From: an uncultured Rubrivirga sp.
Lineage (GTDB): Bacteria; Actinomycetota; Actinomycetes; S36-B12
Length of the DNA stretch: 64,000 bases
Assembly: GCA_964595675.1 (NCBI GenBank)
Contig: CAZQRR010000001.1
Location: 3,724-67,723, forward strand
Direction of reading: 5' to 3'
Made by a program: the position numbers and the translations under genes
Notes under the pieces: generated by a model
The model's input: the letters and a program-made list of their open reading frames with translations, nothing else
Told to the model about the DNA's origin: nothing
The model's database searches: none
Shown here: positions 6,172 through 59,224 of the stretch, one piece after another
Layout of the letters: the number at the start of each line of letters is the position of its first letter
Position numbering within the stretch: position 1 is the first letter of the stretch

Positions 6172-9439
<3,268 letters not shown>

Positions 9440-16020: not shown

Positions 16021-16723
16021 CATCGGAGATTCTGCGCATCGTCGCCTCGCGGGCTTTACGGGCCATGTCCGCCACATCAAGTCGCACTCTCTCCTGCTCT
16101 GCCTCCCGCGCACGCCGATCGACCAGAACCCTCGCCGGCACTCCCCCGGCGATGCTGAACTCGGGGATGTCCCCCCGAACCACGGCATTGGCAGCAACAA
16201 CGCTGCCCTGGCCTACACGTGATCCGCGCAGGATCGTCGACTTCACCCCCAACCACACATCAGGGCCGATGGTGACCGGACTCTTCACCAATCCCTGCCG
16301 CCTGATGGGAAGTGACGTCAGTTCGGTTCGGTGATCGAAGTCTCCGATGTAGACGAAATCGGCGATGATGCACTCGGCACCGATCTGAACGTCCAGGTGA
16401 CAGTTGACGGTGTTGTTCTGCCCGAACACGCACTTGTCACCGATCCGCAATGTTCCTTCGTGTGCACGTAGCACGGTGCCATCGCCCAAGTGCACCCATC
16501 GACCCAGGACTATCCGACCTAGATGCCGACGCCGCTCGATCTTCACCCGCGCCCCGAGGAACACCGGTCCGGTCACCACCACATCAGGGTGCGTGATGCG
16601 CAGGCGGATGAAGCGCCAATAGCGAATCAGATACCAACGGCTCCACGCTTTGTTCCGGACGATCCACCGAAGGGTGGACCAGTCGAACCATCGCCACGCC
16701 ACATCCTGAGCACTAACGGACAT
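15989..16723 (-). CDS. Hexapeptide-repeat (left-handed beta-helix) acetyltransferase
   Basis: Repeated [LIV]G-x4 hexapeptides (IGAECIIADFVYIGD, IGPDVWLGVKSTIL, VGQGSVVAANAVV). Its 3' end overlaps the convergent GH57 3' end by 32 nt. Confidence 0.8.
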   Translation of the reverse strand: MSVSAQDVAWRWFDWSTLRWIVRNKAWSRWYLIRYWRFIRLRITHPDVVVTGPVFLGARVKIERRRHLGRIVLGRWVHLGDGTVLRAHEGTLRIGDKCVFGQNNTVNCHLDVQIGAECIIADFVYIGDFDHRTELTSLPIRRQGLVKSPVTIGPDVWLGVKSTILRGSRVGQGSVVAANAVVRGDIPEFSIAGGVPARVLVDRRAREAEQERVRLDVADMARKAREATMRRISDVSLEEQSSRD

Positions 16724-17966
16724 CGAAGAGAAGATTTCCCTCGAGCTTCATCTGCTCATCGTGCAGGTCGGGTTCTCGCGAGTGCCCCGCTTCACACTGG
16801 TACTGGCGCACAGTTCGTTCGGCGATCGCCGCCCAACCGTGATGCGTTCGAACATGTGCCCGTGCCGCATGCGCCCGTTCCCGCGCCAGGTCCGGATGGT
16901 CGATGCATTCGAGCAACGCGTTGGCCAAGCCTGCGGCGCTACCGGCCTCGAATCCCCAGCCGTGCGCGTCATCGGACAAGAATTCCGTCAGTCCTCCCGA
17001 CCGCGCCGCCACCACCGGCGTCCCAACGCTCGCAGCTTCGAGGGCCACGATGCCGAAAGGCTCGTAGATCGATGGGACGATCGCCACATCGGCTGCGGCC
17101 ACCAGCGCGCGCAGGTTCGACTCCGGTAACCACCCTTGCAGATGCACACGCCCGGCTACACGTTTGCGCTTGGCAAGCTCGGTCAGCGACGCGCTCTGAG
17201 ATCCGCGGCCAGCCATCACGCACTGAACATCGGGGAGACGACGCTTGATTCTCGGGAGTGCCTCGATGATCGTGTGCGCACCCTTCTCCCACTCGAGCCG
17301 ACCCGTGTGGACGAGGAGGACACCCGGGTACTGCGCCCTGATCTCGTCACGCAAGCGCGCATCGACCAAGGTGGCCGAGATATCGACTCCGTTGGGGATC
17401 ACCACGGCATCAGGCATACCGAACAGGCGATCGACCTCCCACTTCATGTGCTGACTGCAGACAAGTACGCGGTCAGCGCCGTGCACCGACCATCGTTCGA
17501 TGCTGTGAATGGCACGCGACAGCGCACCGGGAAGCCACCCTTGATGCCTACCGGCTTCAGTTGCATGCACGGTATGCACCCAAGGAACGTGCAGAGCCTC
17601 ACTGACCAACGAACATGCGTGAGCGGTCAGCCAGTCGTGGCCGTGGACGACGTCGGGCGTCCAGGAGCGACCGAGATCGAGCCCGGATCGAGTCATGGCC
17701 GACGCCAATCCACTCACCCAACCGAGCAAGGTGTCCGGCTCGAACGGCACGAAGGGAGCGTCGCGCACGACGCGGATCACCCGGACCCCGTCTACCGTCT
17801 CATCCGTGGGTGGCGTGGTTCCGTCGTCGGCGTCTATCCCCACGTGTGAGATGACAACCACTTCGTGACCAGCTCGCACCTGCTCGCGAGCAATGGCGTA
17901 CACATGCCTACCCAATCCGCCGTAGACGACCGGCGGGTACTCCCACGACAGGTGACAGATGCGCAC
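16713..17966 (-). CDS. GT4-family glycosyltransferase (alpha-1,4-glucosyltransferase / Rv3032-like)
   Basis: ICHLSWEYPPVVYGGLGRHV N-terminus and the E-x7-E region (PSIYEPFGIVALEAASVGTPVV). The 546-aa ORF is trimmed to GTG 17964-17966, which overlaps the upstream TAG by 1 nt. Confidence 0.85.
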   Translation of the reverse strand: MRICHLSWEYPPVVYGGLGRHVYAIAREQVRAGHEVVVISHVGIDADDGTTPPTDETVDGVRVIRVVRDAPFVPFEPDTLLGWVSGLASAMTRSGLDLGRSWTPDVVHGHDWLTAHACSLVSEALHVPWVHTVHATEAGRHQGWLPGALSRAIHSIERWSVHGADRVLVCSQHMKWEVDRLFGMPDAVVIPNGVDISATLVDARLRDEIRAQYPGVLLVHTGRLEWEKGAHTIIEALPRIKRRLPDVQCVMAGRGSQSASLTELAKRKRVAGRVHLQGWLPESNLRALVAAADVAIVPSIYEPFGIVALEAASVGTPVVAARSGGLTEFLSDDAHGWGFEAGSAAGLANALLECIDHPDLARERAHAARAHVRTHHGWAAIAERTVRQYQCEAGHSREPDLHDEQMKLEGNLLFDVR

Positions 17967-49616: not shown

Positions 49617-51122
49617 TCAAGCAACCCCGGCCCAATCGGTTTCCGCGGCGACCCGTAGCGCCTGGGCACCGATGGTCAACGCCGGATTTTGCGCTCCGCT
49701 GGAGGGGAAGAACGACGAATCCACCACGAACAGGTTCGCAACATCATGGCTTCGACACCATGGATCCAACACGCTCACCTGCGGATCGACTCCCGCCACG
49801 ACCGTCCCGCACATGTGCGAATTGAGCGCTATGTCGAAACGTTGCTCGGCGATACCGATGTAGCCCGCCTGACGCAGCAGTTTCTTGGCACGCGAGAGCA
49901 GCATCTCGTGACGGTCGTAGTTGGTGCGACGCCAGGAAATCTGGATGCGGCCATCGCGACCCACGCTCACCCGGTTATGCGGACTCGGTAGGTCTTCACT
50001 CATTACCAACCACTCCATACTGCGGTCGGCGATGCGATTCAAGACATGGAGCGGGACTCCAGTGGCATGGGTCTTCATCATCGAGCCTTGGACTTTGCCG
50101 ATCAGTTGGATAGTCCCTCCGGGAAAGCCATCCCCCATGTCCCGGTAGAAGTCGTTGATCGCCACTGTCTTTTGGAAGACCACATCGTTTTTCCGGCGTG
50201 GATCGATGGCAGCGATGTGCGTGTTGTTGTGCACCATGTAGTTGCGGCCGACCAGTCCCGTTCGATTGGCCAGACCCGCAGGATGGTCATCGCTTGCAGA
50301 CCGCAGAAGTAGCGCGGCGCTGTTGGCAGCTCCTGCGGAGATGACGAAAGCCCCACCGGTCACTCGGAATGGCTCCCCCTGCCGATCCCCCTCGACGGCA
50401 ACCACGCGATCACGGTCGGCGACCACCTTGGTCACCTTCATATGCGTAAGCACGCGCACATACCCGGTCGCCACGGCCGGGTCGATGCCGCAGGTCTGTG
50501 CATCCGACTTCGCACCCAGCCGGCAGGGGAAGCCGTCGCATGTGCCGCAGCGGATGCACGCTCCACCGGGCCGGAGATCCACTCCCATCGCGGTGCTCGA
50601 CGGGTGAACTCCTTGCGCTTCGAGCCTGCGGACTGTTTCGGCGACATACGGCTCGTGCTGTAGCGCAGGGAACGGGAAGGGAGCGCTGCGCCACGGCTCG
50701 GACGGATCCTCACCCGTTGTGCCGTGGACCTTGAACAATTTTTCGATCTGTCCGTAGTACGGCTCGAGGTCGGCATACCTGAACGGCCACGCCGGACTCA
50801 CTCCCGACGGATACTCGGTGCGCTCGAAATCGTCCTCACGCAGCCTGGGCAAACTCGAGCCGTAGACCTTGGTGTTGCCACCCACCACGTAGTGCACGCC
50901 GGGAGCGAACTCACGGCCGTCGTCATCGACCCACATCTCATCGGGCTTGTAGCGGCGTTGAACGAATACGGCTTCCGGTGACCAGTTCTGCCGTTCCCGC
51001 GGCAAGTAATCACCGCGCTCGAGGACGAGTACATCGACGCCCCGCTGGGCGAGGCCCCAAGCAAGCGTGCCACCGCCCATGCCGGAACCGACGATCACAA
51101 CCGTGGCGGAATCATCGATCAT
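49617..51122 (-). CDS. GMC-family FAD-dependent oxidoreductase
   Basis: GxGxxG (VVIVGSGMGGGTLA) and a C-terminal GMC region. The 610-aa ORF is trimmed to ATG 51120-51122. Confidence 0.85.
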   Translation of the reverse strand: MIDDSATVVIVGSGMGGGTLAWGLAQRGVDVLVLERGDYLPRERQNWSPEAVFVQRRYKPDEMWVDDDGREFAPGVHYVVGGNTKVYGSSLPRLREDDFERTEYPSGVSPAWPFRYADLEPYYGQIEKLFKVHGTTGEDPSEPWRSAPFPFPALQHEPYVAETVRRLEAQGVHPSSTAMGVDLRPGGACIRCGTCDGFPCRLGAKSDAQTCGIDPAVATGYVRVLTHMKVTKVVADRDRVVAVEGDRQGEPFRVTGGAFVISAGAANSAALLLRSASDDHPAGLANRTGLVGRNYMVHNNTHIAAIDPRRKNDVVFQKTVAINDFYRDMGDGFPGGTIQLIGKVQGSMMKTHATGVPLHVLNRIADRSMEWLVMSEDLPSPHNRVSVGRDGRIQISWRRTNYDRHEMLLSRAKKLLRQAGYIGIAEQRFDIALNSHMCGTVVAGVDPQVSVLDPWCRSHDVANLFVVDSSFFPSSGAQNPALTIGAQALRVAAETDWAGVA

Positions 51123-51135
51123 GGCAAGAGCCGAT

Positions 51136-51792
51136 TCATGACAACAGCCGTTCCACGACCGCCACGAGATCAGCACCGATGACGTCCGGCTCGCCGAAAT
51201 TCGCGTCGAAGATTCCTTCGAGCCGTGATACCCACGCGGTCTGCAATCCCGCCGCGGCAGCTCCACCGATATCCCACGAATGCACGGCAACCATGCAGAC
51301 CTCGCTCGCGTCGAATCCCAGCACGCGGCATGCATGCAGGTACGGCTCAGGTGCGGGCTTCCAGCGTCGCACCTCCTCGCACGACAGGTGGGTGTCCACG
51401 AGTTCCGCCAGCCCCGAGCGCTCGAACAACCGCGCGACGTACGCCGCATTGCCCACGCTCAACGTGACCATCGGGATCCCATTGTCCTGCAATCGTCGTA
51501 AGGCTGGCTCAACCTCCGGATACGGCTCCAAGGCGGCGAATGCCTCGATCAGTGCATCCGTCTCCTCCGCACCCATCCGTTCAGGATCCATGCCCCGAAG
51601 AGCTCCACGGGCCACCTCCGGGAAGCCTCGGTATTCCCCCGCGCACGTCAGCGCGAACCCGGTGCGCAGAACCCGCGCGAACCACAGGTCCCGCCGCCCA
51701 GGTAAACCCCACCGATCGAATAGCGGGTCAAGCACCCGCAGGGAGAAGAGCGTCTCGTTGACGTCCAGAACGATCGCCCGCGGCCTACCCAC
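51136..51792 (-). CDS. HAD-superfamily hydrolase (type II haloacid dehalogenase-like)
   Basis: Motif I LDVNETLF. 218 aa from GTG 51790-51792; the ORF's ATG at 51831 is an alternative start. Confidence 0.75.
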   Translation of the reverse strand: MGRPRAIVLDVNETLFSLRVLDPLFDRWGLPGRRDLWFARVLRTGFALTCAGEYRGFPEVARGALRGMDPERMGAEETDALIEAFAALEPYPEVEPALRRLQDNGIPMVTLSVGNAAYVARLFERSGLAELVDTHLSCEEVRRWKPAPEPYLHACRVLGFDASEVCMVAVHSWDIGGAAAAGLQTAWVSRLEGIFDANFGEPDVIGADLVAVVERLLS

Positions 51793-51833
51793 GGGAACGA
51801 GCGTAGGAGTTCCAACTAGCGCACAATGCACCT

Positions 51834-52325
51834 ATGGCCGATTCCGCATCTTCGATCTACGACCTCTCTTTCACCTCGAACACCGGTGAGGAGGTACCCC
51901 TCAAGCAGTTCGAGGGCAAGCCCCTGCTCATTGTCAACACCGCCAGCAAGTGCGGCTTCACCCCGCAGTACAAAGGTCTGCAGGAGATCTACGACCAACT
52001 CGGGCCCGACGTCGTGGTCATCGGCTTCCCGTGCGATCAGTTCGCCCATCAAGAACCAGGCGACGACGAACAAATCAAGGAATTCTGCGAGATCAATTAC
52101 GGCGTGACGTTCCCGCTCTCGACGAAGGTCGACGTCAACGGCTCCAAGACCCATCCCGTCTTCGCTTTCTTGAAAGACCGCGCGGGCGGGCTACTTGGTT
52201 CGACCATCAAGTGGAACTTCACCAAATTCCTGGTCGGCCCCGACGGCACCACAGTCAAGCGCTACGCACCCAAAACCGATCCTCAGATGGTGCGGATGGA
52301 CGCGGAGGAAATGCTCGGACGTTGA
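51834..52325 (+). CDS. Glutathione peroxidase family protein
   Basis: NTASKCGFT, FPCDQF, WNFTKFLV motifs; 163 aa. Confidence 0.92.
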   Translation: MADSASSIYDLSFTSNTGEEVPLKQFEGKPLLIVNTASKCGFTPQYKGLQEIYDQLGPDVVVIGFPCDQFAHQEPGDDEQIKEFCEINYGVTFPLSTKVDVNGSKTHPVFAFLKDRAGGLLGSTIKWNFTKFLVGPDGTTVKRYAPKTDPQMVRMDAEEMLGR

Positions 52326-52334
52326 AGTGGAAAG

Positions 52335-52372
52335 CAGAAGGGCCCCAGGGGAAGCTCCCTGAGGCCCTTCTG
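52335..52372 (+). terminator. Strong hairpin downstream of the peroxidase gene
   Basis: CAGAAGGGCC (52335-52344) pairs with GGCCCTTCTG (52363-52372), with an inner CAGGG/CCCTG stem. The U tract is weak. Confidence 0.55.
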
Positions 52373-52497
52373 TTGGTAGCGGGGCGAAACAGGCAGGGCG
52401 CGACCATCGAGTTCCGTGCCCACCGAGATCCCCTCACGAACCCGCACGCCTGCACCCCCTCCTGCACTCCCCAGAGGCGCAGAACCTGCACCCCCCT
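52373..52497. repeat. Dispersed repeat copy A (tRNA-fMet 3'-end-like core plus ~110-nt arm)
   Basis: TTGGTAGCGGGG matches the tRNA-fMet 3' end. The following ~110 nt are about 85% identical by eye to 54322-54433. Three TGCAC(C/T)CC motifs at 52451, 52463 and 52487. Confidence 0.8.
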
Positions 52498-52519
52498 CGT
52501 CATCAATTGAGGCGGCCGG

Positions 52520-53359
52520 CTATTTCACGATCCTCGCTACCGCGCGATCGTAGAGACCATCTCCCCCGAAGCGGCGCAGCCTCCACATGGGCTTGGCGAG
52601 GTAGCCGGCCATGTAGCGGGACTTTGGCTTGCTGCTGGATATCGCCGTGAGGATGGTGTCCGCGATGAGGGATGGTGGTGAGGCCCGTCGGACGAAGTCG
52701 GGGTCGGAGAGCGTGCGCGTCACCTTGTCGGTCAGGTCCTGGTAGGGACTGTTCGCAGCGCTGGACGGCAGGTGGCTGGTGTGCTGGGCAAGGACGTCGC
52801 TGAACTCCGTCGCGATGCCGCCCGGCTCGATAATGACGACGTCGATACCGAGGGGCTTGAGCTCGACGCGCAGACAGTCAGACCAGCCCTCGAGTGCATG
52901 CTTTGTTGCGTGGTACCAAGCACCCAGCGGGGTGTAAATGCGTCCACCCATCGAGGAAATGTTCACGATCGTGCCCGCCTTCTGAGCACGCATGTGCGGG
53001 ATGACGAGTTGGGTGAGTCGAGCGAGGCCGAAGATGTTGACCTCGAACTGGTAGCGGGCGGCGTCGATGGACACCTCCTCCACCGGGCCGTATTGCGCAA
53101 AGCCGGCGTTGTTCACCAGGACATCAAGGCGTCCCTGTTCACCGATGATGCGCGTGACCGCAGCGGACACCTGACCCTCGTCGGTGATGTCCATCTCCAC
53201 GGGGATCACCCCGGGCAACTCGGTGATGCGATCGACACGCCGGGCCGCCCCGTACACGACGTATCCGGCTGACACGAGCCTGCTGGCCGTCGCGGCTCCG
53301 ATGCCGCTTGACGCACCCGTCACAAGCACAACCTGAGAAGCCATGGCTTTTCCCCTCAT
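52520..53359 (-). CDS. Short-chain dehydrogenase/reductase
   Basis: VLVTGASSGIGAATA, NNAG and YHATKHA motifs. The start may be ATG 53347. Confidence 0.9.
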   Translation of the reverse strand: MRGKAMASQVVLVTGASSGIGAATASRLVSAGYVVYGAARRVDRITELPGVIPVEMDITDEGQVSAAVTRIIGEQGRLDVLVNNAGFAQYGPVEEVSIDAARYQFEVNIFGLARLTQLVIPHMRAQKAGTIVNISSMGGRIYTPLGAWYHATKHALEGWSDCLRVELKPLGIDVVIIEPGGIATEFSDVLAQHTSHLPSSAANSPYQDLTDKVTRTLSDPDFVRRASPPSLIADTILTAISSSKPKSRYMAGYLAKPMWRLRRFGGDGLYDRAVARIVK

Positions 53360-53388
53360 GAATGAACACTACGATACCGTAGCGTATC

Positions 53389-54024
53389 ATGCAGACTGTG
53401 GCAGGGGACTCAACGCACGGTCGCGATACTGGGGCCGTGCCCGAACTCGGCGCGGACCCTGACCCGCGCGTCCTGCGATCGATCGACGCCGTCCAGGCGG
53501 CCGCGCTCAAGCTCTTCGTCGACGGAGGGCCCCGCGCGGTCACCGTGGATGCGGTGAGCGACACCTCCGGCGTGGCCAAGACGACGATCTACCGGCACTG
53601 GACCGACCGAGCGCACCTGCTGGCTGATACCTACCGCGCCTGTCTGCCGATCGTCGCCGAGCCACCCGTATCACTCGACCCCGAGCAGGCATTGCGTTTC
53701 GTCGTTCGCGAGCTCGTCACCGGCCTCGGAACTCCGCCCGCTCGACCCGCGCTCCCCCACCTCATCGCCACTCCGCTTGATGCAGTGGAATCCCTAGCTC
53801 TCCCCGAAGGCATCCTCGACCAGACCTTCGCTCCCGTCGTCGCCGCGATCACGTCTTGCGCTCAAGCCGGCCTCATTCCCGTTGATGCAGACATCCTCGA
53901 GGCCAAGCATGAGATCGTCGGCTTCGTCATCATGTCCGCCCTCGACCCGGACTGCCCGATGAGCAACGCTCTCGCCGACCGCATTGTCAACCTCTTCATC
54001 GCCGGCCGACGTAGCGCGTCCTAG
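53389..54024 (+). CDS. TetR-family transcriptional regulator
   Basis: HTH region TVDAVSDTSGVAKTTIYRHWTDR. Divergent from the SDR gene across about 30 nt that contain overlapping palindromes (CTACGATACCGTAGCGTATC). Confidence 0.85.
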   Translation: MQTVAGDSTHGRDTGAVPELGADPDPRVLRSIDAVQAAALKLFVDGGPRAVTVDAVSDTSGVAKTTIYRHWTDRAHLLADTYRACLPIVAEPPVSLDPEQALRFVVRELVTGLGTPPARPALPHLIATPLDAVESLALPEGILDQTFAPVVAAITSCAQAGLIPVDADILEAKHEIVGFVIMSALDPDCPMSNALADRIVNLFIAGRRSAS

Positions 54025-54252
54025 CTCCGCAGGCGAGTTGCACTTCGCACTTTCGGCTTTCACTCGGTTTGTTCACACATCGGCGCCTGAACCGTATGCC
54101 TCGATGCCTGGGTTTAGCTGACATGAGATTTCGTGCCCAAGCAGGCATCGCCACGAGAATGCGAGGCACCGGTCCAGTGCCCCCGTTGACAGGGCGTGAC
54201 CCGAGTCAGCGCTTCAGGTCTCCGCGGCAGAGGACCTCCGCCTACGACCAAG

Positions 54253-54433
54253 AGTCCCTGATTTCTCAGGGGCCTTCAGCCGTGACATTCAAATAGTTGC
54301 ACCTTCACATTGATAGCGGGGCGAAACTGACAGGGCGCGACCACCGGGTTGCGTGCACACCGAGATCCCCTCAGGAACCCGCACTCGTGCACCCCTTCTG
54401 CACCCCCCGGGGGAGCACAGCTTGCACCCACCC
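54253..54433. repeat. Dispersed repeat copy B (left arm like the tRNA-fMet trailer, core, right arm like copy A)
   Basis: 54253-54303 is about 75-80% identical by eye to 56066-56117. The core TTCACATTGATAGCGGGG (54304-54321) matches 56118-56135 at 17 of 18 positions. 54322-54433 matches copy A. Confidence 0.8.
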
Positions 54434-54503
54434 TGTCAACATTCGCCACGATCACGCGCCGATGACGGCAGGCAGTCAGACGGTGCCTCTCGTCGGCGTT
54501 ACC

Positions 54504-55238
54504 TCAGCCGATAATCCAGGCTGACTGCGCAGAGTTGTAACTAAGTGTGCGCGAGCAGACGGCACCACCGGTCCCGCCGTTCGGCCATTGCGCCCACGAC
54601 TCACCCCAGCCTCCGCTGCCAACACCAGCCCAGTTGAGCACTGCAGGAGCTGCGGCAGCGCAGGTGCCAGATACTGGCTTCCCAAACTGCTGATGGATCG
54701 GCTGAGGGCCGGAGGACGGGGAATCAGAGGACGATCCACCACCACCACCAGAGGATGGCGAAGACGCTGTCAACGTCGTGAGTAAGGCTCCCCTGGAGAC
54801 GCCGACGTATTCGTAGATTCGAATCGCCGTCACATCACTGCCCAGTGCGCTCGTGGTAGTGCCACTTCCAACCGCGGCGAATCCGACGTTGACTTCGACG
54901 GAGTTTCGCACGACGACAACCTGAATGCCCATGGGGGATGGGCAGCTATTGGTCACAGACAGGGTGTCGGACGACGAGGTCCACGTAACTGGTGAGGCAG
55001 AAGTCCACGAGCCACTGGTTGCGGTGACGCTTGCAGTTGGGGTTGAGGAATTGCAGGCGGAGACGTCGATGCCCGTGGGTGTGGTCGCCGCAACTACTGG
55101 ACTCGCTCCGAGAACAGCCAACGATCCCAACGCTGCGCTCGCGCAAACGCCCACGACGATCCGTTGCACGTTCCTGCGAATCGCTGGCTGATGAGAAGTC
55201 GTAGCCTTGATCGTCCACAGTGCATTCATGCGGTTCAC
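54504..55238 (-). CDS. Secreted protein, unknown function (Ser/Thr-rich, Gly/Ser linker, Cys/Trp-rich C-terminal module)
   Basis: N-terminal basic region and hydrophobic helix ending ASPVVA-AT. Linker SSGGGGGSSSDSPSS. C-terminal module GTC...LNWAGVGSGGWGESWAQWPNGGTGGAVCSRTL. Confidence 0.6.
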   Translation of the reverse strand: MNRMNALWTIKATTSHQPAIRRNVQRIVVGVCASAALGSLAVLGASPVVAATTPTGIDVSACNSSTPTASVTATSGSWTSASPVTWTSSSDTLSVTNSCPSPMGIQVVVVRNSVEVNVGFAAVGSGTTTSALGSDVTAIRIYEYVGVSRGALLTTLTASSPSSGGGGGSSSDSPSSGPQPIHQQFGKPVSGTCAAAAPAVLNWAGVGSGGWGESWAQWPNGGTGGAVCSRTLSYNSAQSAWIIG

Positions 55239-55356
55239 TCCCTCGTCATCTGCAACCCGTCACTGAAACCTAGGCACCTACCTCCTATTTGTCAACGACG
55301 ATAACTATTTCGCTACTGGGCCGGGCTCCAGGCGCACCGGCGGATATCGTCAATCC

Positions 55357-55980
55357 ATGCCCGCCGGTCGTCCGCCCGCCCATTCCCGTGCGGAATTCGT
55401 GCAGGCCGCAATCCGCATAGCCGATGAACAGGGCCTCGATGCTCTCTCGATGCGGAAGCTCGCTGACGATCGCGGGGTTACGAGCGCAGCGATCTACCGC
55501 TACTTCGAGAGCAAGGCCGATCTTGTCGCTGCTGTTCGAGAGTCCCTGATGATCGAGCTGCTCCAGAACCTTCCGGCCGACGGTCCGCGTGAGCGCCTGT
55601 TCGCGCTTGGCCAGGCCTTTCGGGCCCAGACACGAGCACACCCTTGCCTCGCCGAGTTCAGCACGCTTCCTGCGACAGAGGGAGAGATGAGTGGCGCGAT
55701 TCCCGCGTTCATCCTGCAGCAGTTGCGTCTCATCGGACTCGAGGGTGCAACGCTGATCCGAGGCTTCCGCCAACTCGAGAGCTTTGTCGTGGGCTCGAGC
55801 ATGTTCGACTTCGCTGATGCGCCTCGCCACCTCAGCGATCGACTCGCTCGCGTAAGACGGTCAGACGATCCCACTGTCAATGCCTTGCTGACGTCCGAGT
55901 CTGACATCGACGCCGACAACGAGGCCGCCTTCATCACATCCTTCAACTGGATCCTCGACCGCCTCATCGCGGAGGCATGA
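55357..55980 (+). CDS. TetR-family transcriptional regulator
   Basis: HTH region SMRKLADDRGVTSAAIYRYFESK; 207 aa. Confidence 0.85.
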   Translation: MPAGRPPAHSRAEFVQAAIRIADEQGLDALSMRKLADDRGVTSAAIYRYFESKADLVAAVRESLMIELLQNLPADGPRERLFALGQAFRAQTRAHPCLAEFSTLPATEGEMSGAIPAFILQQLRLIGLEGATLIRGFRQLESFVVGSSMFDFADAPRHLSDRLARVRRSDDPTVNALLTSESDIDADNEAAFITSFNWILDRLIAEA

Positions 55981-56065
55981 GAGCCGCCGAGTAGATCTGC
56001 GCCCAGCGGGAAGTGCGAGGCCGTGACGTTCAGCGGCCACGCGTCGTGGCACCCGAAAAGGCGAT

Positions 56066-56091
56066 GAGGCCCCTGATCTGTCAGGGGCCTC
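56066..56091. terminator. 11-bp-stem hairpin between the TetR gene and tRNA-fMet
   Basis: GAGGCCCCTGA-TCTG-TCAGGGGCCTC. It could terminate either converging transcript. Confidence 0.6.
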
Positions 56092-56124
56092 ATCGTGACG
56101 TCCACGCTAGTTGAACGTTCACAT

Positions 56125-56201
56125 TGGTAGCGGGGGCAGGATTTGAACCTGCGACCTCTGGGTTATGAGCCCAGCGAGCTACCGAGCTGCTCCACCCCGC
56201 G
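56125..56201 (-). tRNA. Initiator tRNA-Met (CAT)
   Basis: Reverse complement: CGCGGGGTGGAGCAGCTCGGTAGCTCGCTGGGCTCATAACCCAGAGGTCGCAGGTTCAAATCCTGCCCCCGCTACCA. Full cloverleaf, C1:U72 mismatch, three G:C pairs closing the anticodon stem, encoded CCA. Confidence 0.95.
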
Positions 56202-56239
56202 CCGCTTCTTGCGAAGTTTGCCCAGGATACGCCACCGGG

Positions 56240-59224
56240 TCAGGTGACCTGTTCGTCGGGTACGGCTTCCTCGACGCCCTCGTCGACCGGTGGCGGCAGT
56301 CCACCGCCAACGAGCTGCGCCTCGGCCGCCGCTGCTCGTTGCAGCGCCTCCTCCAAACGGTCCTGGGCCTGGCCGTAGGCCCCGAAGTCGCCTTCAGCCA
56401 ACGCTGCCTGACCATCGGCATAGGCCTGCTGTGCGTCCTGGATAGCGATCGTTAGGTCGGTGAGGGGGTCGCCCGTAGAGGGGATCGGTTCCGGCGGCAC
56501 ATCCTCGGGGATCGGTTGAGGCTCGAGGCCTCCCTCAGACTCGAATTCCGGGTCGACGGTCGGAGCTGGCGAAGAGCCGAACACCTGATCCAAGGCTCCG
56601 GCGAGGGTGTCGTCGAGCGCCACATTGGCGCCATAGCCCACCAGCACCTTTCGAAGCAGCGGATAGCCCTCGGACGCCGCGCGCAGATAGACAGGTTCCA
56701 CATATAGCAAGCCGTCGTTGAATGGAAGCGACAAGAGGTTGCCGAACTCGATCTCCGAACCTCCTCGGCGCAGCAACGAGAGCTGAGAGGAGACGACCGG
56801 ATCGGATTCGAAGTTGTTCTGCACCTGTTGCGGGCCGGGGGTGGTCGTGTTGGACGGCAGCTGCAGCACGCGGATCTTGCCGTAGTCCTCCCCTGGGGCC
56901 GAGTTCACCTGCATGAACGCGGCCAGAGTCTGCCGCCGCTGCGGGGCGAATGTGGTGGTGAGCGAGAAAGCCGGCTCGATCTCACCGGGCATCTGCAAGG
57001 TGAGGTAGTACGGCGGTTGGAATACCTGCGCGGGAGTGACGGTTGGATCGAAGGGAACGATCCACACAGCGGTGCCGTTATAGAAGGTGTCGGCGTCCGT
57101 CACGTGGTAGCGCGACATCATGAAGCGCTGGACCTTGAACAGATCCTGCGGGTAGCGCACGTGTTGTTCCACGGCTTCCGGCATAGCAGATCGCGGCTCG
57201 ACCACATCGGGGAAGGCCTTCTGCCACGTCTGCAGGACCGGATCGGCTTCATCCCAGGCGTACAAAGTGACCGAACCTTCATAGGCGTCCACGACTGCCT
57301 TCACCGAATTGCGCGCGTAGTTGACCTGGTCGCGCGCGATCAAGCCTGCAGCGAAGTTCGCACCGCTGATGGAGTCGGCGGTAGCTTCGGAAAGGGACAC
57401 CCGGCTGGAGTACGGGAAGTCGTTGCTCAACGTGTAGCCATCGACGATCCACTTGATCCGACCGTCGATAACTACGGGGTAGGGATCTTGATCCAACGTG
57501 AGCCAGGGAGCGACCTTGCCAACACGCGTGAGCGGATCGCGATCCCACATGATCTGAGAATCGGCGTTGACCAAATCCGACAGCAGGATGTTGGAGTCTT
57601 GGAACTTCGTGGCGAACAGTAGGCGACCGAAGAGCGATCCCATCGGTACGCCGCCGTCACCCTCGTAGGTGCTGTTGCGCTGCCCCGACGGACTTTGGTC
57701 GTCTGGATAGTCGAGTTCGATCGGCGGACTCCCCTCGGGTGCACCGACGATCGAGTAGGGCGGAGAGAACTCACCGAAGTAGATTCGTGGCTGCTCGAGA
57801 TCCAATGCGCCCGTCGTAGGAATGTCGCTGACGAAGAAGTCGGGGGTGCCATTGGACAGGGCCGTGTTGTCGTACGCGGCAACCACGCCATAGCCGTGAG
57901 TGAAGACGGCCACCTCGTTGGTCCAATTGCGCTGACCGTCAGGTATACCCGCAAGGTTGATTTCGCGCGCTGCGATGACCGCACCCCGCTGTTGATCATC
58001 GAGTGTGTAGCGATCGATGTCCAACCGCGCATTGAAGGAGTAGTAACCACGGATCTGCTGCAACTGGTTGTAGGTGGGTGAGACGACCGCCGGATCCAGG
58101 AGACGAATGTTGTCCAGGGTTCCCGCGCTGGCTTGGAGAACCTCCTCCGACGGCGGAGAGACCGAACCGGCGTACTCCTCGACCTCGGCATCGGCGATGT
58201 TGTAGGCATCGCGTGTCGCTTCGATGTTGCGTTCGATGTACGGACGCTCGCGCACCAACTCGCTCGGTCGAACTTGGAACTGCTGGACGATCAAGGGGTA
58301 CACGCCACCGACGATCACCGAGGTCAGGACCATCAGTCCCAGGCCGATCAGCGGAATGATCCATTGACGAATGAATATGTTGACTAGGAAAAGGAGACCG
58401 ACCAACAAAGCCACGAACGTCAAGATGTTCAGGGCGGGGAGCACAGCGTTGGCGTCCGTGTACTGCAGGCCGGTGAAGCCGCCTGCCAGATCGCTGCTGC
58501 GCAAGACGAGGTCGTACCGATCCAGCCAGTAAGCCGCAGCCTTGAGGACAAGGAAAACCGCGAGCAGGGCGGACACCTGAACCTGAGCCGCCCTGGTGGC
58601 GCGATCCCCCTTGGGTTGCAGACGAAGGCCCCCGTAGAGGTATTGCACGACCACCACGAGGCCCAAGGCGATGAAGACGGTGACGAATGCGTAGCCGAGC
58701 AAGAATCGAAGGAATGGAAGTTCGAAGGTGTAGAAGGAGACGTCCAGCCCGAACTGCGGGTCGGTCATGCCGAAGGGCGTGGAGTTGCGCCACTGAAGGT
58801 AACGGCCCCACTCGCCAGCGGCGGCCAAGCCGCCGAACAGGCCGAAGATCGCCGTGAGCGCCAAGACGATGCGACCCCGGTAAGGCTCGACCGCCTCGCG
58901 ATAGCGCTCGAGAGAGGCCTGCTCGGGGGTCGTGCCCGCGAATGCAGGTCGTGTCCGATACGAAATTAGGAGCGCTGCCAACACGACCAACGCGAGCGCA
59001 AGTCCGAACCCAGCGAACATCACGCCTCTGGTGACGATCGCAATTGTGTAGACCTGCGGCTTGTCGACGGAGGTGAACCACAGCCAGTCGGTGTAGAAGC
59101 CGGTGAACAGCACGAAGCTCACGACCAGTGCGGCTAGAACGCCGATGGTGGGGAGGAGGACTCCCCCGCGCCGACGATCAGCCGTTTCCGAACCAACACC
59201 CCCGCCGGGGAAATTAAACGTCAC
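56240..59224 (-). CDS. UPF0182-family large membrane protein (Rv3193c-like)
   Basis: 994 aa. About seven N-terminal TM helices, then a large extracytoplasmic region and an acidic C-terminus. GTG start. Confidence 0.85.
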   Translation of the reverse strand: MTFNFPGGGVGSETADRRRGGVLLPTIGVLAALVVSFVLFTGFYTDWLWFTSVDKPQVYTIAIVTRGVMFAGFGLALALVVLAALLISYRTRPAFAGTTPEQASLERYREAVEPYRGRIVLALTAIFGLFGGLAAAGEWGRYLQWRNSTPFGMTDPQFGLDVSFYTFELPFLRFLLGYAFVTVFIALGLVVVVQYLYGGLRLQPKGDRATRAAQVQVSALLAVFLVLKAAAYWLDRYDLVLRSSDLAGGFTGLQYTDANAVLPALNILTFVALLVGLLFLVNIFIRQWIIPLIGLGLMVLTSVIVGGVYPLIVQQFQVRPSELVRERPYIERNIEATRDAYNIADAEVEEYAGSVSPPSEEVLQASAGTLDNIRLLDPAVVSPTYNQLQQIRGYYSFNARLDIDRYTLDDQQRGAVIAAREINLAGIPDGQRNWTNEVAVFTHGYGVVAAYDNTALSNGTPDFFVSDIPTTGALDLEQPRIYFGEFSPPYSIVGAPEGSPPIELDYPDDQSPSGQRNSTYEGDGGVPMGSLFGRLLFATKFQDSNILLSDLVNADSQIMWDRDPLTRVGKVAPWLTLDQDPYPVVIDGRIKWIVDGYTLSNDFPYSSRVSLSEATADSISGANFAAGLIARDQVNYARNSVKAVVDAYEGSVTLYAWDEADPVLQTWQKAFPDVVEPRSAMPEAVEQHVRYPQDLFKVQRFMMSRYHVTDADTFYNGTAVWIVPFDPTVTPAQVFQPPYYLTLQMPGEIEPAFSLTTTFAPQRRQTLAAFMQVNSAPGEDYGKIRVLQLPSNTTTPGPQQVQNNFESDPVVSSQLSLLRRGGSEIEFGNLLSLPFNDGLLYVEPVYLRAASEGYPLLRKVLVGYGANVALDDTLAGALDQVFGSSPAPTVDPEFESEGGLEPQPIPEDVPPEPIPSTGDPLTDLTIAIQDAQQAYADGQAALAEGDFGAYGQAQDRLEEALQRAAAAEAQLVGGGLPPPVDEGVEEAVPDEQVT

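What the first reader, a model, noticed from the sequence alone, without database searches (positions are those of the whole stretch)
52335..56201. Repeat architecture at tRNA-fMet fits two tandem integrase-less 1.9-kb cassettes, each with a TetR regulator and one cargo gene
Seen: the 18-nt core TTCACATTG(G/A)TAGCGGGG occurs at the tRNA-fMet 3' end plus trailer (56118-56135) and at 54304-54321. A 12-nt version, TTGGTAGCGGGG, occurs at 52373-52384. To the right of the core, 52385-52497 and 54322-54433 are about 85% identical to each other. Each carries three spaced TGCAC(C/T)CC motifs (spacings about 12 and 24 nt), and neither matches the tRNA body. To the left of the core, 54253-54303 is about 75-80% identical to 56066-56117, including a hairpin, whereas the left flank of copy A is the peroxidase terminator. 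This layout, L0-core-P' ... P-core-P' ... P-core-tRNA, is what two successive site-specific integrations of related elements at a tRNA 3' end would produce. The two intervals carry SDR + TetR (52385-54303) and secreted protein + TetR (54322-56117). Neither contains a recombinase. The TGCACCCC triplets could be arm-type recombinase binding sites. All identities are judged by eye.
Basis: partly seen in the sequence, partly recalled or inferred. Interest (0 to 1): 0.65.

Follow-up and report, generated by a model that had tools for sequence, protein, structure and literature searches.

The report
Integrase-less gene cassettes at tRNA-fMet
Two small horizontally acquired gene cassettes sit in tandem at the 3' end of the initiator tRNA gene; each ends in the same 130-nt site built around a decayed tRNA copy, and neither carries its own recombinase, which makes this a freshwater-actinobacterial example of a known kind of tRNA-linked "additive" gene island.

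Summary
tRNA-fMet lies at 56125-56201 on the minus strand. Two units follow it, 54311-56124 and 52374-54310. Each runs: conserved left end plus terminator hairpin, TetR gene, one cargo gene, 132-nt arm, 11-nt tRNA 3' end CCCCGCTACCA.

Comparative data settle the origin:
- The closest relatives have an empty site: tRNA, hairpin, glutathione peroxidase.
- The SDR+TetR unit is 99% identical in protein in a genome whose flanking core protein is only 70% identical. There it sits directly beside the tRNA, and DNA identity stops exactly at the core.
- Two 99.5%-identical contigs differ by exactly this one unit.

A profile of the arm finds 27 copies (20 distinct) in 19 other loci. Wherever the tRNA is in view, the arm is downstream of tRNA-fMet and co-oriented with it. 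Arrays reach at least four units. Cargo is mostly toxin-antitoxin pairs, and one 202-nt unit has no cargo. No arm-bounded unit encodes a recombinase.

One correction: the arm does match the tRNA body, as a decayed in-register copy. It also has a fourth, inverted GGGGTGCA motif. It shows no conserved RNA structure.

The recombinase was not found, so the mechanism is inferred. The closest known kinds are additive genomic islands and CIME-like non-autonomous elements.

The parts
56125..56201 (-). Intact initiator tRNA-Met(CAT) gene. Its last 11 nt (56125-56135, CCCCGCTACCA on the minus strand) are the shared core, acting as the attB-side junction.
   Evidence: ARAGORN and Rfam tRNA at 63.6 bits. 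The C1xU72 mismatch and three G:C pairs in the anticodon stem are read from the sequence.
56062..56124 (-). Left end of cassette B. It consists of ATGTGAACGTTCAACTA, which contains the palindrome TGAACGTTCA, followed by a 15-bp perfect hairpin (56062-56095). The hairpin now serves as terminator for the tRNA and for the convergent TetR gene.
   Evidence: Inverted repeat I9. The same type of left end follows the tRNA or an arm in L018 (twice), L084, L089 and L043. It is absent from the empty sites.
55357..55980 (+). TetR-family regulator of cassette B.
   Evidence: Pfam TetR_N, E = 3.6e-13. It is only 23% identical to the TetR of cassette A.
54504..55238 (-). Cargo gene of cassette B. It encodes a predicted secreted protein of unknown function, with a signal-peptide-like N-terminus, a Gly/Ser linker and a C-terminal SWAQWPNG..GG.VC motif.
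   Evidence: No Pfam hit. Homologues come only from freshwater metagenomes. Translation.
54311..54442 (-). Arm B. On the minus strand it reads: TTGACA box, four GGGGTGCA-type motifs (54388-54442), a 77-nt decayed tRNA-fMet copy (54311-54387), ending in the core CCCCGCTATCA (54311-54321).
   Evidence: nhmmer score 125, alignments, similarity to the tRNA.
54250..54310 (-). Left end of cassette A: ATGTGAAGGTGCAACTA plus a hairpin around 54256-54283.
   Evidence: Repeat families D3 and D10. 72% identical to the cassette B left end.
53389..54024 (+). TetR-family regulator of cassette A. It is transcribed divergently from the SDR gene across a 29-nt spacer.
   Evidence: Pfam TetR_N and TetR_C_11. 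99% identical to the L018 copy. A promoter-like site at 53363-53390 abuts the ATG.
52520..53359 (-). Cargo gene of cassette A: a short-chain dehydrogenase/reductase.
   Evidence: Pfam adh_short, E = 2.5e-49. 98.9% identical to the L018 copy.
52374..52505 (-). Arm A: motif region 52451-52505, decayed tRNA copy 52374-52450, core 52374-52384. It marks the distal boundary of the array.
   Evidence: nhmmer score 128. Identity with L018 stops immediately after the core.
52335..52372 (.). Original terminator hairpin shared by the tRNA and the glutathione peroxidase gene. The two insertions have displaced it about 3.75 kb from the tRNA.
   Evidence: Inverted repeat I8. The homologous hairpin directly follows the tRNA in the empty sites of L001, L007 and L012.
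51834..52325 (+). Glutathione peroxidase, the conserved chromosomal flank.
   Evidence: Pfam GSHPx. It is adjacent to the tRNA in L001, L007 and L012.

Best explanation
The interval holds two non-autonomous integrative gene cassettes, of 1,814 and 1,937 nt. They were inserted one after the other into the 3' end of the initiator tRNA gene.

Structure of a cassette. In its presumed circular form, each cassette has a composite attachment site made of three parts:
- a 120-nt arm, consisting of a TTGACA box, four GGGGTGCA-type repeats and a decayed copy of the tRNA-fMet body;
- the 11-nt core CCCCGCTACCA, identical to the tRNA 3' end;
- a left end with a strong hairpin.

How insertion works. Recombination within the core places the cassette's hairpin end next to the tRNA. 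That keeps the tRNA intact and gives it a new terminator. The arm plus core ends up at the far side, next to whatever lay there before. A new arrival therefore sits nearest the tRNA and pushes older cassettes outward. On this reading the secreted-protein/TetR cassette arrived after the SDR/TetR cassette.

What is shown and what is inferred. These points are shown: the units are discrete, horizontally moved and bounded at the core. These points are inferred: a site-specific (most likely tyrosine) recombinase encoded elsewhere does the cutting and joining, and the repeated motifs are its binding sites or those of an accessory protein. Homologous exchange between arms probably shuffles the arrays as well.
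For: 1. Empty sites. In L001, L007 and L012 (UPF0182 83-92% identical to the window's) the tRNA is followed directly by the hairpin and the glutathione peroxidase gene. In the window the homologous hairpin follows arm A, with the junction exact to the base after CCA.
2. Transfer between distant genomes. SDR and TetR are 98.9% and 99% identical in L018, whose UPF0182 is only 70% identical. The unit there is tRNA-proximal rather than distal. DNA identity of 97-100% ends at the core on both sides.
3. One-unit polymorphism. L089 and L018 are 99.56% identical over 4,590 nt and differ by exactly this one unit at the tRNA-proximal position.
4. Distribution of the arm. 27 arms (20 distinct) occur in 19 loci plus the window. 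In all 14 sources where the tRNA is in view (13 of those loci plus the window), the arm is downstream of tRNA-Met(CAT) and co-oriented with it. Arrays hold 1 to at least 4 units, and unit lengths range from 202 nt to 5.5 kb.
5. Conserved arm, unrelated cargo. Arms are 82-92% alike while the cargo differs: the two TetRs in the window are 23% identical. Cargo elsewhere includes HigBA, MNT/HepT, AbiE, YoeB-like toxins, a glycosyltransferase, a methyltransferase and surface proteins.
6. No recombinase domain was found in any of about 12 distinct arm-bounded units.
7. The arm carries an in-register decayed tRNA copy: 28-34 of 66 positions against a null of 17.7 +/- 3.6. The motif is enriched: 13 copies against 5.5 expected.
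Against: - No cognate recombinase was found. There is none in the window by motif scan or by jackhmmer with a local integrase. No arm was found in viral contigs, phage records or plasmid records. The only integrase seen at this tRNA (L058/L106) belongs to an arsenic-resistance island that has no arm.
- No excised circle or junction read was seen. Short contigs simply break inside arms.
- The L018/L089 difference could equally be a deletion by homologous recombination between the 82-nt direct repeats.
- Arms are mosaics. L018 arm 1 matches window arm A in its 5' part and window arm B in its 3' part. So homologous exchange certainly also acts here.
- That the GGGGTGCA repeats bind protein is conjecture.
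Confidence: 0.72

Rival explanations
1. No dedicated recombinase is involved. Cassettes spread by homologous recombination of incoming DNA, using the nearly invariant tRNA gene and the 130-nt arm as portable homology on either side. The arm persists because it hitchhikes.
For: - The tRNA is 97-100% identical across the loci, and arms are 82-92% alike, so both could serve as recombination substrates.
- Arms are mosaic, with an apparent breakpoint in mid-arm.
- The single-unit difference between L018 and L089 is bounded by 82-nt direct repeats.
- No integrase was found.
Against: - An arm-free empty site offers homology on one side only. Yet the distal junction in the window is exact to the base after an 11-nt core. 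That is the signature of site-specific recombination, not homologous recombination.
- A cargo-less 202-nt unit (L017, L081, L091) is hard to explain by homologous recombination.
- The arm has strongly conserved blocks and phased repeats that go beyond what simple hitchhiking needs.
Confidence: 0.17
2. The arms are genes for a tRNA-like small RNA or another structured RNA with its own function. The arrangement is an ancestral chromosomal feature rather than a set of insertions.
For: - The arm contains a tRNA-derived segment ending in CCA.
- Many copies have a TTGACA box upstream.
- A hairpin follows each arm.
Against: - The closest relatives lack the arm altogether.
- RNAalifold gives -15.2 kcal/mol with a covariation term of only -0.27.
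- When the tRNA cloverleaf is imposed, only 44% of cells pair, no better than shuffled or slid controls.
- Folding z-scores are -0.03 to -0.9.
- There is no Rfam hit and no promoter consensus.
- The hairpins that follow the arms differ from one another. They belong to the next cassette or to the native flank.
Confidence: 0.04
3. A local tandem duplication of an ancestral block (tRNA, TetR, neighbouring gene) occurred, and the extra tRNA copies then decayed.
For: - Both units have the same gene order and similar length.
- The arm is tRNA-derived.
Against: - The two TetRs are only 23% identical and the cargo genes are unrelated, yet the arms are 82% identical.
- All arms share the same pattern of decay, so they descend from one arm rather than from repeated decay of the tRNA.
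- The SDR/TetR unit occurs at 99% identity in a distant genome.
Confidence: 0.02

Closest known systems
Additive flexible genomic islands at tRNA/tmRNA genes, described in Alteromonas (PMC4898812), Ca. Actinomarinales (PMC7771536) and Methylophilaceae (PMC10872708)
   Same: - A tRNA gene acts as an insertion hotspot.
- The number and kind of small cassettes vary between close relatives.
[quoted passage not shown]
- Identical cassettes occur in divergent genomes.
- tRNA-Met and tmRNA are among the sites used.
   Different: - The published descriptions rest on a tRNA fragment of about 20 nt. Here every cassette also carries a conserved segment of about 120 nt, with a decayed full-length tRNA copy and four phased motifs.
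- That segment defines a single element family across unrelated cargo.
- The family includes a cargo-less 202-nt unit.
CIMEs (cis-mobilizable elements), as defined in ICEberg 2.0 (PMC6323972)
   Same: - They have no integration or transfer genes but keep att sites at both ends.
- They occur in tandem accretion at the integration site.
   Different: - CIMEs are understood as deletion derivatives of a known ICE or IME, and are moved together with an ICE that shares their att site. No such parent or helper was found here.
- The units here are much smaller (0.2-5.5 kb) and uniform in design.
Integron gene cassettes
   Same: - Arrays of small units that lack a recombinase.
- Each unit ends in a conserved recombination site.
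- The newest unit sits nearest the insertion point.
- Cargo is rich in toxin-antitoxin pairs.
   Different: - There is no intI gene or attI platform next to the array.
- The site is tRNA-derived rather than an attC palindrome, and shows no unusual folding.
- The cassettes carry their own regulators and promoters.
Tycheposons of Prochlorococcus (bioRxiv 10.1101/2020.12.28.424599)
   Same: - Elements integrate at a few tRNA genes, tRNA-Met among them.
- Tandem elements are separated by partial tRNA copies.
- They build islands in free-living aquatic bacteria.
   Different: - Tycheposons are defined by their own tyrosine recombinase and replication module. The units here have neither.

Membership tests
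Site-specific integrative element at a tRNA 3' end | Direct repeats of the tRNA 3' end at both junctions, with the tRNA left intact | tested here: met
   The core CCCCGCTACCA is present at 56125-56135 and 52374-52384, and as CCCCGCTATCA at 54311-54321. The tRNA scores 63.6 bits.
Site-specific integrative element at a tRNA 3' end | An unoccupied site in related genomes, with junctions at the repeat | tested here: met
   Empty sites in L001, L007 and L012. A one-unit difference between L018 and L089.
Site-specific integrative element at a tRNA 3' end | The element encodes its own integrase (as in an autonomous ICE, IME or prophage) | tested here: not met
   No recombinase domain in the window's four genes or in about 12 other arm-bounded units.
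CIME (cis-mobilizable element) | Lacks integration and transfer genes but retains attL and attR | tested here: met
   The att sites are identified by sequence only; their function was not tested.
CIME (cis-mobilizable element) | Shares att sites with an autonomous element that mobilises it | tested here: inconclusive
   No arm-bearing element with an integrase was found in 106 loci, viral contigs, phage records or plasmid records. Whole genomes could not be searched.
Additive flexible genomic island | A tRNA-linked hotspot whose cassette content varies among relatives, marked by partial-tRNA direct repeats | tested here: met
   Among the loci, the space between the tRNA and the peroxidase gene is empty, or holds 1.1 kb, or holds 7-9 kb, or holds arm-bounded arrays.
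Integron | An intI integrase gene with attI and a promoter at the head of the array | tested here: not met
   The gene upstream of the tRNA is UPF0182. No tyrosine-recombinase motif or homologue was found in the window.
Integron | attC sites that fold as imperfect hairpins | tested here: not met
   Arms fold no better than shuffled sequence on either strand, with z-scores from -0.03 to -0.9. Only RNA energy parameters were used.
Tycheposon | Own tyrosine recombinase plus a replication module | tested here: not met
tRNA gene or structured RNA | A cloverleaf or other structure maintained by compensatory changes | tested here: not met
   44% of cells pair, equal to the controls. Covariation term -0.27. 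ARAGORN and Rfam detect only the real tRNA.

The most novel reading that the evidence does not exclude
The arms define a dedicated cassette system in freshwater Actinobacteria that resembles an integron. In this reading, a recombinase encoded elsewhere in the chromosome recognises a site of about 130 nt, made of a tRNA mimic plus four GGGGTGCA repeats, and inserts or excises any DNA attached to that site at the initiator tRNA gene. The 202-nt cargo-less unit would be the bare recombination site. The system would be a main route by which these bacteria exchange toxin-antitoxin and small accessory modules. The same logic may operate at the tmRNA gene, and through a second, shorter arm family seen at the same tRNA.
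Probability: 0.25. Interest if true: 0.75.

Novelty: new variant of a known kind. Interest (0 to 1): 0.5.

Why it matters
Free-living aquatic bacteria exchange small gene cassettes at tRNA genes at a high rate. Yet the cassettes usually carry no recombinase, and how they move is poorly understood.

This locus offers an unusually clean case. A single family of units is recognisable by a long conserved end. It comes with empty sites, a single-unit polymorphism between near-identical genomes, the same unit in distant genomes, and a cargo-less minimal unit.

The conserved arm and its phased repeats give a concrete handle. They can serve as a search pattern and as a binding substrate for finding the enzyme responsible. 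They can also be used to count cassette turnover in metagenomes.

For annotation, the arm explains why assemblies of these genomes break into contigs of about 1.9 kb at this locus.

Tried and rejected
- Rfam scan of 50000-58000 at E <= 1 found only the tRNA and a chance miRNA hit on the terminator.
- Structured-RNA reading of the arm was rejected on RNAalifold, the imposed cloverleaf, and single-sequence folds on both strands.
- Promoter scan found no consensus promoter in the arms.
- Search for a helper recombinase led nowhere:
  - A regex for the HxLRH box and for the serine-recombinase motif over all loci gave one real integrase, in L058.
  - jackhmmer with that integrase found no homologue in the window or in any other locus.
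  - Its 10-kb downstream context is an arsenic-resistance island with no arm and no partial tRNA repeat. Its family is very widespread, so it is not a convincing helper.
- Arm patterns in viral contigs gave nothing. A motif-pair pattern hit only a coding 12-nt tandem repeat.
- blastn of the arm against phage and plasmid records gave no match.
- Exact-protein look-ups for the window's peroxidase and UPF0182 found nothing on record. TetR A and the secreted protein occur only on one 3.7-kb Logan contig with the same arrangement, so no within-population variant of the window's own array was found.
- GC content does not separate the cassettes (0.62 and 0.64) from the window (0.63). Composition is therefore uninformative.
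- I did not run Pfam on all 64 window ORFs. The statement that the window has no recombinase rests on the motif scan, the jackhmmer search and reading the translations by eye.

Full report
**What is in the window**

tRNA-Met(CAT) lies on the minus strand at 56125-56201. Its C1xU72 mismatch and the GGG:CCC run in the anticodon stem mark it as the initiator tRNA. That reading comes from the sequence plus established knowledge of initiator tRNAs. The gene upstream is UPF0182 (56240-59224, minus strand).

Reading downstream along the minus strand, the order is:
- a TetR gene (55357-55980, plus strand);
- a gene for a secreted protein with no Pfam hit (54504-55238, minus strand);
- a second TetR gene (53389-54024, plus strand);
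- an SDR gene (52520-53359, minus strand);
- a hairpin, then glutathione peroxidase (51834-52325, plus strand).

**Checking the observation**

- The 18-nt core copies match at 17 of 18 positions, and the 12-nt copy is exact.
- The arms are 82.3% identical with gaps (93/113), and 88% identical without gaps over 89 nt.
- The left flanks are 72% identical, against 48 +/- 3.4% for random window segments.
- TGCACYCC occurs 13 times in the window against 5.5 +/- 2.6 expected. Five of those copies are in the arms.

A profile built from related copies shows that each arm is 132 nt long: 52374-52505 and 54311-54442. There are no other copies in the 64 kb.

**Anatomy of the arm**

In the orientation of the tRNA, the arm reads as follows:
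- a TTGACA-like box;
- GGGGGTGCA, then an inverted TGCACCCCC, then two more GGGGGTGCA at roughly 12-nt phasing;
- a 77-nt stretch that ends in CCCCGCTACCA.

In exact register with the shared 3' end, arms match the tRNA body at 28-34 of 66 positions, against a null of 17.7 +/- 3.6. The match is concentrated in positions 24-50 (anticodon arm and variable loop) at 17-22 of 27. The T arm has been replaced.

The copy is not a working tRNA or a structured RNA:
- With the cloverleaf imposed on 17 distinct arms, only 44% of cells pair, the same as shuffled and slid controls.
- RNAalifold finds a weak structure with a covariation term of -0.27.
- Single arms fold no better than shuffles on either strand.
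- Rfam and ARAGORN see nothing there.
- There is no promoter consensus.

**Related genomes**

UPF0182 retrieved 80 species-level loci, mostly Ca. Nanopelagicales-like and other actinobacterial MAGs from fresh and brackish water.

In the closest relatives with an uninterrupted site (L001, L007 and L012), the tRNA is followed directly by a terminator hairpin and the peroxidase gene. The window has the homologous hairpin immediately after arm A, and the junction is exact to the base after CCA. Other close relatives carry 1.1 kb or 7-9 kb of arm-free DNA at the same place. The site is therefore a general hotspot.

Arms are absent from the twelve closest loci. They are present in more distant ones: L014, L017, L018, L032, L043 and L062. 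They are also present in 13 of the 15 metagenome contigs recovered with an arm pattern. In total there are 27 arms, 20 of them distinct. In all 14 sources where a tRNA is in view (13 loci plus the window), the arm is downstream of tRNA-Met(CAT) and co-oriented with it. Arrays hold up to four units.

**Evidence that the units move**

1. The SDR+TetR unit of the window recurs in L018 at 98.9% and 99% protein identity, although UPF0182 is only 70% identical there. In L018 the unit sits directly beside the tRNA, not in second position. The DNA alignment is 97-100% identical from the hairpin to the arm and collapses immediately outside the core on both sides.
2. L089 and L018 are 99.56% identical over 4,590 nt up to and just past the tRNA, and 99.0% identical again from L018 position 6449. 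L018 simply has one extra unit, the SDR+TetR cassette, in the tRNA-proximal slot. The HigBA unit that is second in L018 is first in L084 and L089.
3. The arms are 82-92% alike while the cargo is unrelated. The two TetRs in the window are 23% identical.
4. L017, L081 and L091 carry a 202-nt unit made only of a hairpin and an arm.

Cargo elsewhere includes:
- HigB/HigA;
- a sortase-like protein with MNT/HepT;
- AbiEi/AbiEii;
- Gp49/HigB-like and YoeB-like toxins with XRE partners;
- Phd;
- a glycosyltransferase, a methyltransferase and DUF2332;
- surface proteins.

**Left ends**

Several cassettes, both window units among them, begin with AATGTGAA(C/G)GTTCAACTA, often followed by a second GAACGTTC. 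A long hairpin comes next. The hairpin takes over as terminator of the tRNA. The empty sites lack this sequence. Other cassettes begin with other hairpin types. Some of those resemble the native tRNA trailers of other genomes, which suggests that flanks get carried along or recombined.

**Mechanism**

The following points are shown:
- The units are discrete.
- The junctions are precise, within an 11-nt identity with the tRNA 3' end.
- The tRNA is preserved.
- The newest unit is nearest the tRNA.
- Units transfer horizontally.

The following points are inferred:
- A site-specific recombinase acts on the arm-core-left end of a circular intermediate and on the tRNA 3' end.
- The phased GGGGTGCA repeats, and the conserved blocks TTCGTGAGGGGATCTCG and GGTCGCGCCC, are protein-binding sites.

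The crossover must lie within CCCCGCTACCA. Anything further 5' would replace the tRNA's T arm with the scrambled arm sequence.

No arm-bounded unit encodes a recombinase. The one integrase found at this tRNA (L058, Pfam Phage_integrase, E = 5e-23) heads an arsenic-resistance island that has no arm and no tRNA repeat within 10 kb. It has no homologue in the window or in the other loci. Viral, phage and plasmid collections hold no arm.

The enzyme is therefore unknown and must act in trans.

Homologous recombination also acts. L018 arm 1 is a mosaic of the window's arm A (5' part) and arm B (3' part). The L018/L089 difference is flanked by 82-nt repeats. Homologous recombination alone, however, does not explain precise insertion into an arm-free site, and it does not explain the cargo-less unit.

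**Comparison with what is known**

Additive flexible genomic islands are tRNA/tmRNA hotspots where small cassettes accumulate. [quoted passage not shown] They have been described in Alteromonas (PMC4898812), Ca. Actinomarinales (PMC7771536) and Methylophilaceae (PMC10872708). Tandem elements separated by partial tRNAs are described for tycheposons (bioRxiv 10.1101/2020.12.28.424599). Elements that have lost their integration genes but keep their att sites are called CIMEs (PMC6323972).

The locus fits the additive-island and CIME descriptions. It fails the defining tests for an autonomous integrative element, an integron and a tycheposon.

What I did not find described is a single family of small recombinase-less cassettes that share a long arm made of a tRNA mimic plus repeats, together with a bare-site member. 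I therefore rate it a new variant of a known kind, of moderate interest. Its value lies mainly in making the mobility mechanism of such islands testable.

**Limits**

- Only +/-10 kb around each locus could be read, so whole-genome recombinase content is unknown.
- The metagenome scan needed an exact 19-base pattern and will have missed diverged arms.
- Gene calls in the loci came from a GC3-guided ORF picker, not a trained gene finder.
- No expression or excision data exist.

Noticed in passing
L098 8579-10800; L099; L100 1-1913: A related SDR+TetR pair (TetR 77% identical to the window's) sits directly after the tmRNA gene in another lineage. It is flanked by a direct repeat of the tmRNA 3' end (CCCGGCACCTCCACCA) and has no integrase. 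The same cargo therefore occurs as a small island at a different RNA-gene site.
   Followed up: partly
L032 about 16650-16740 (also L087); L045 about 6650-6745; L088 (also L092); a variant in L043 after 22432: A second, shorter arm family lies at the same tRNA. It reads GGATTTGGG.GGAG, then a hairpin, then GACGG(T/C)TCCTG(G/A)CCC(C)GCTAC. It carries a 14-17-nt tRNA 3' repeat and is followed by a copy of a cassette left end. This suggests another element type that uses the same site.
   Followed up: partly
L017 13292-13493; L081 6867-7069; L091 3310-3511: A cargo-less unit of 202-203 nt: tRNA, a hairpin with a spacer (about 70 nt together), then a full arm and core, then the native flank. It is effectively a bare attachment site inserted at the tRNA.
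   Followed up: partly
L058 19655-20698; L106 10001-20906: A tyrosine integrase lies directly after tRNA-fMet and heads an arsenic-resistance island (ArsA, ArsD-methyltransferase, ArsR, ArsC-like phosphatases, an aquaporin) that ends near an IS3-family transposase. The integrase family is 70-88% identical across many Actinobacteria and beyond.
   Followed up: partly
L003, L005, L006, L009, L011 (between the tRNA at about 13.1 kb and the peroxidase gene at about 20-22 kb): The closest relatives carry 7-9 kb of arm-free DNA between tRNA-fMet and the glutathione peroxidase gene. Its content was not examined.
   Followed up: no
window 54504-54700 (C-terminus of the secreted protein); L082 cassette ORF; tblastn hits in L014 10877-11062 and L059 14156-14311: A conserved C-terminal motif of about 60 aa (SWAQWPNG..GG.VC) is shared by otherwise different secreted or surface proteins of these freshwater Actinobacteria. 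A few homologues carry PF19408.
   Followed up: no
window 53360-53388: The SDR and TetR A start codons are only 29 nt apart. The spacer holds the palindrome CTACG-ATAC-CGTAG and a promoter-like site that abuts the TetR ATG. This suggests a leaderless, self-regulated divergent pair.
   Followed up: no
L097 (1,850 nt), L100, and the contig lengths listed: Metagenome contigs that carry close relatives of the SDR/TetR unit cluster at about 1.8-2.05 kb and break inside arms at both ends. The arm evidently fragments short-read assemblies at this locus.
   Followed up: partly
L018 6329-6460 compared with window 52374-52505 and 54311-54442: Arms are mosaics. L018 arm 1 is identical to window arm A in its 5' two-thirds but follows window arm B in the pseudo-anticodon region. 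This indicates exchange between arms.
   Followed up: partly
L103 3013-3032; L104 1270-1289 (viral contigs): The GGGGTGCAGGAGGGGGTGCA pattern also occurs as a coding 12-nt tandem repeat in two IMG/VR contigs. It is unrelated to the arm.
   Followed up: yes
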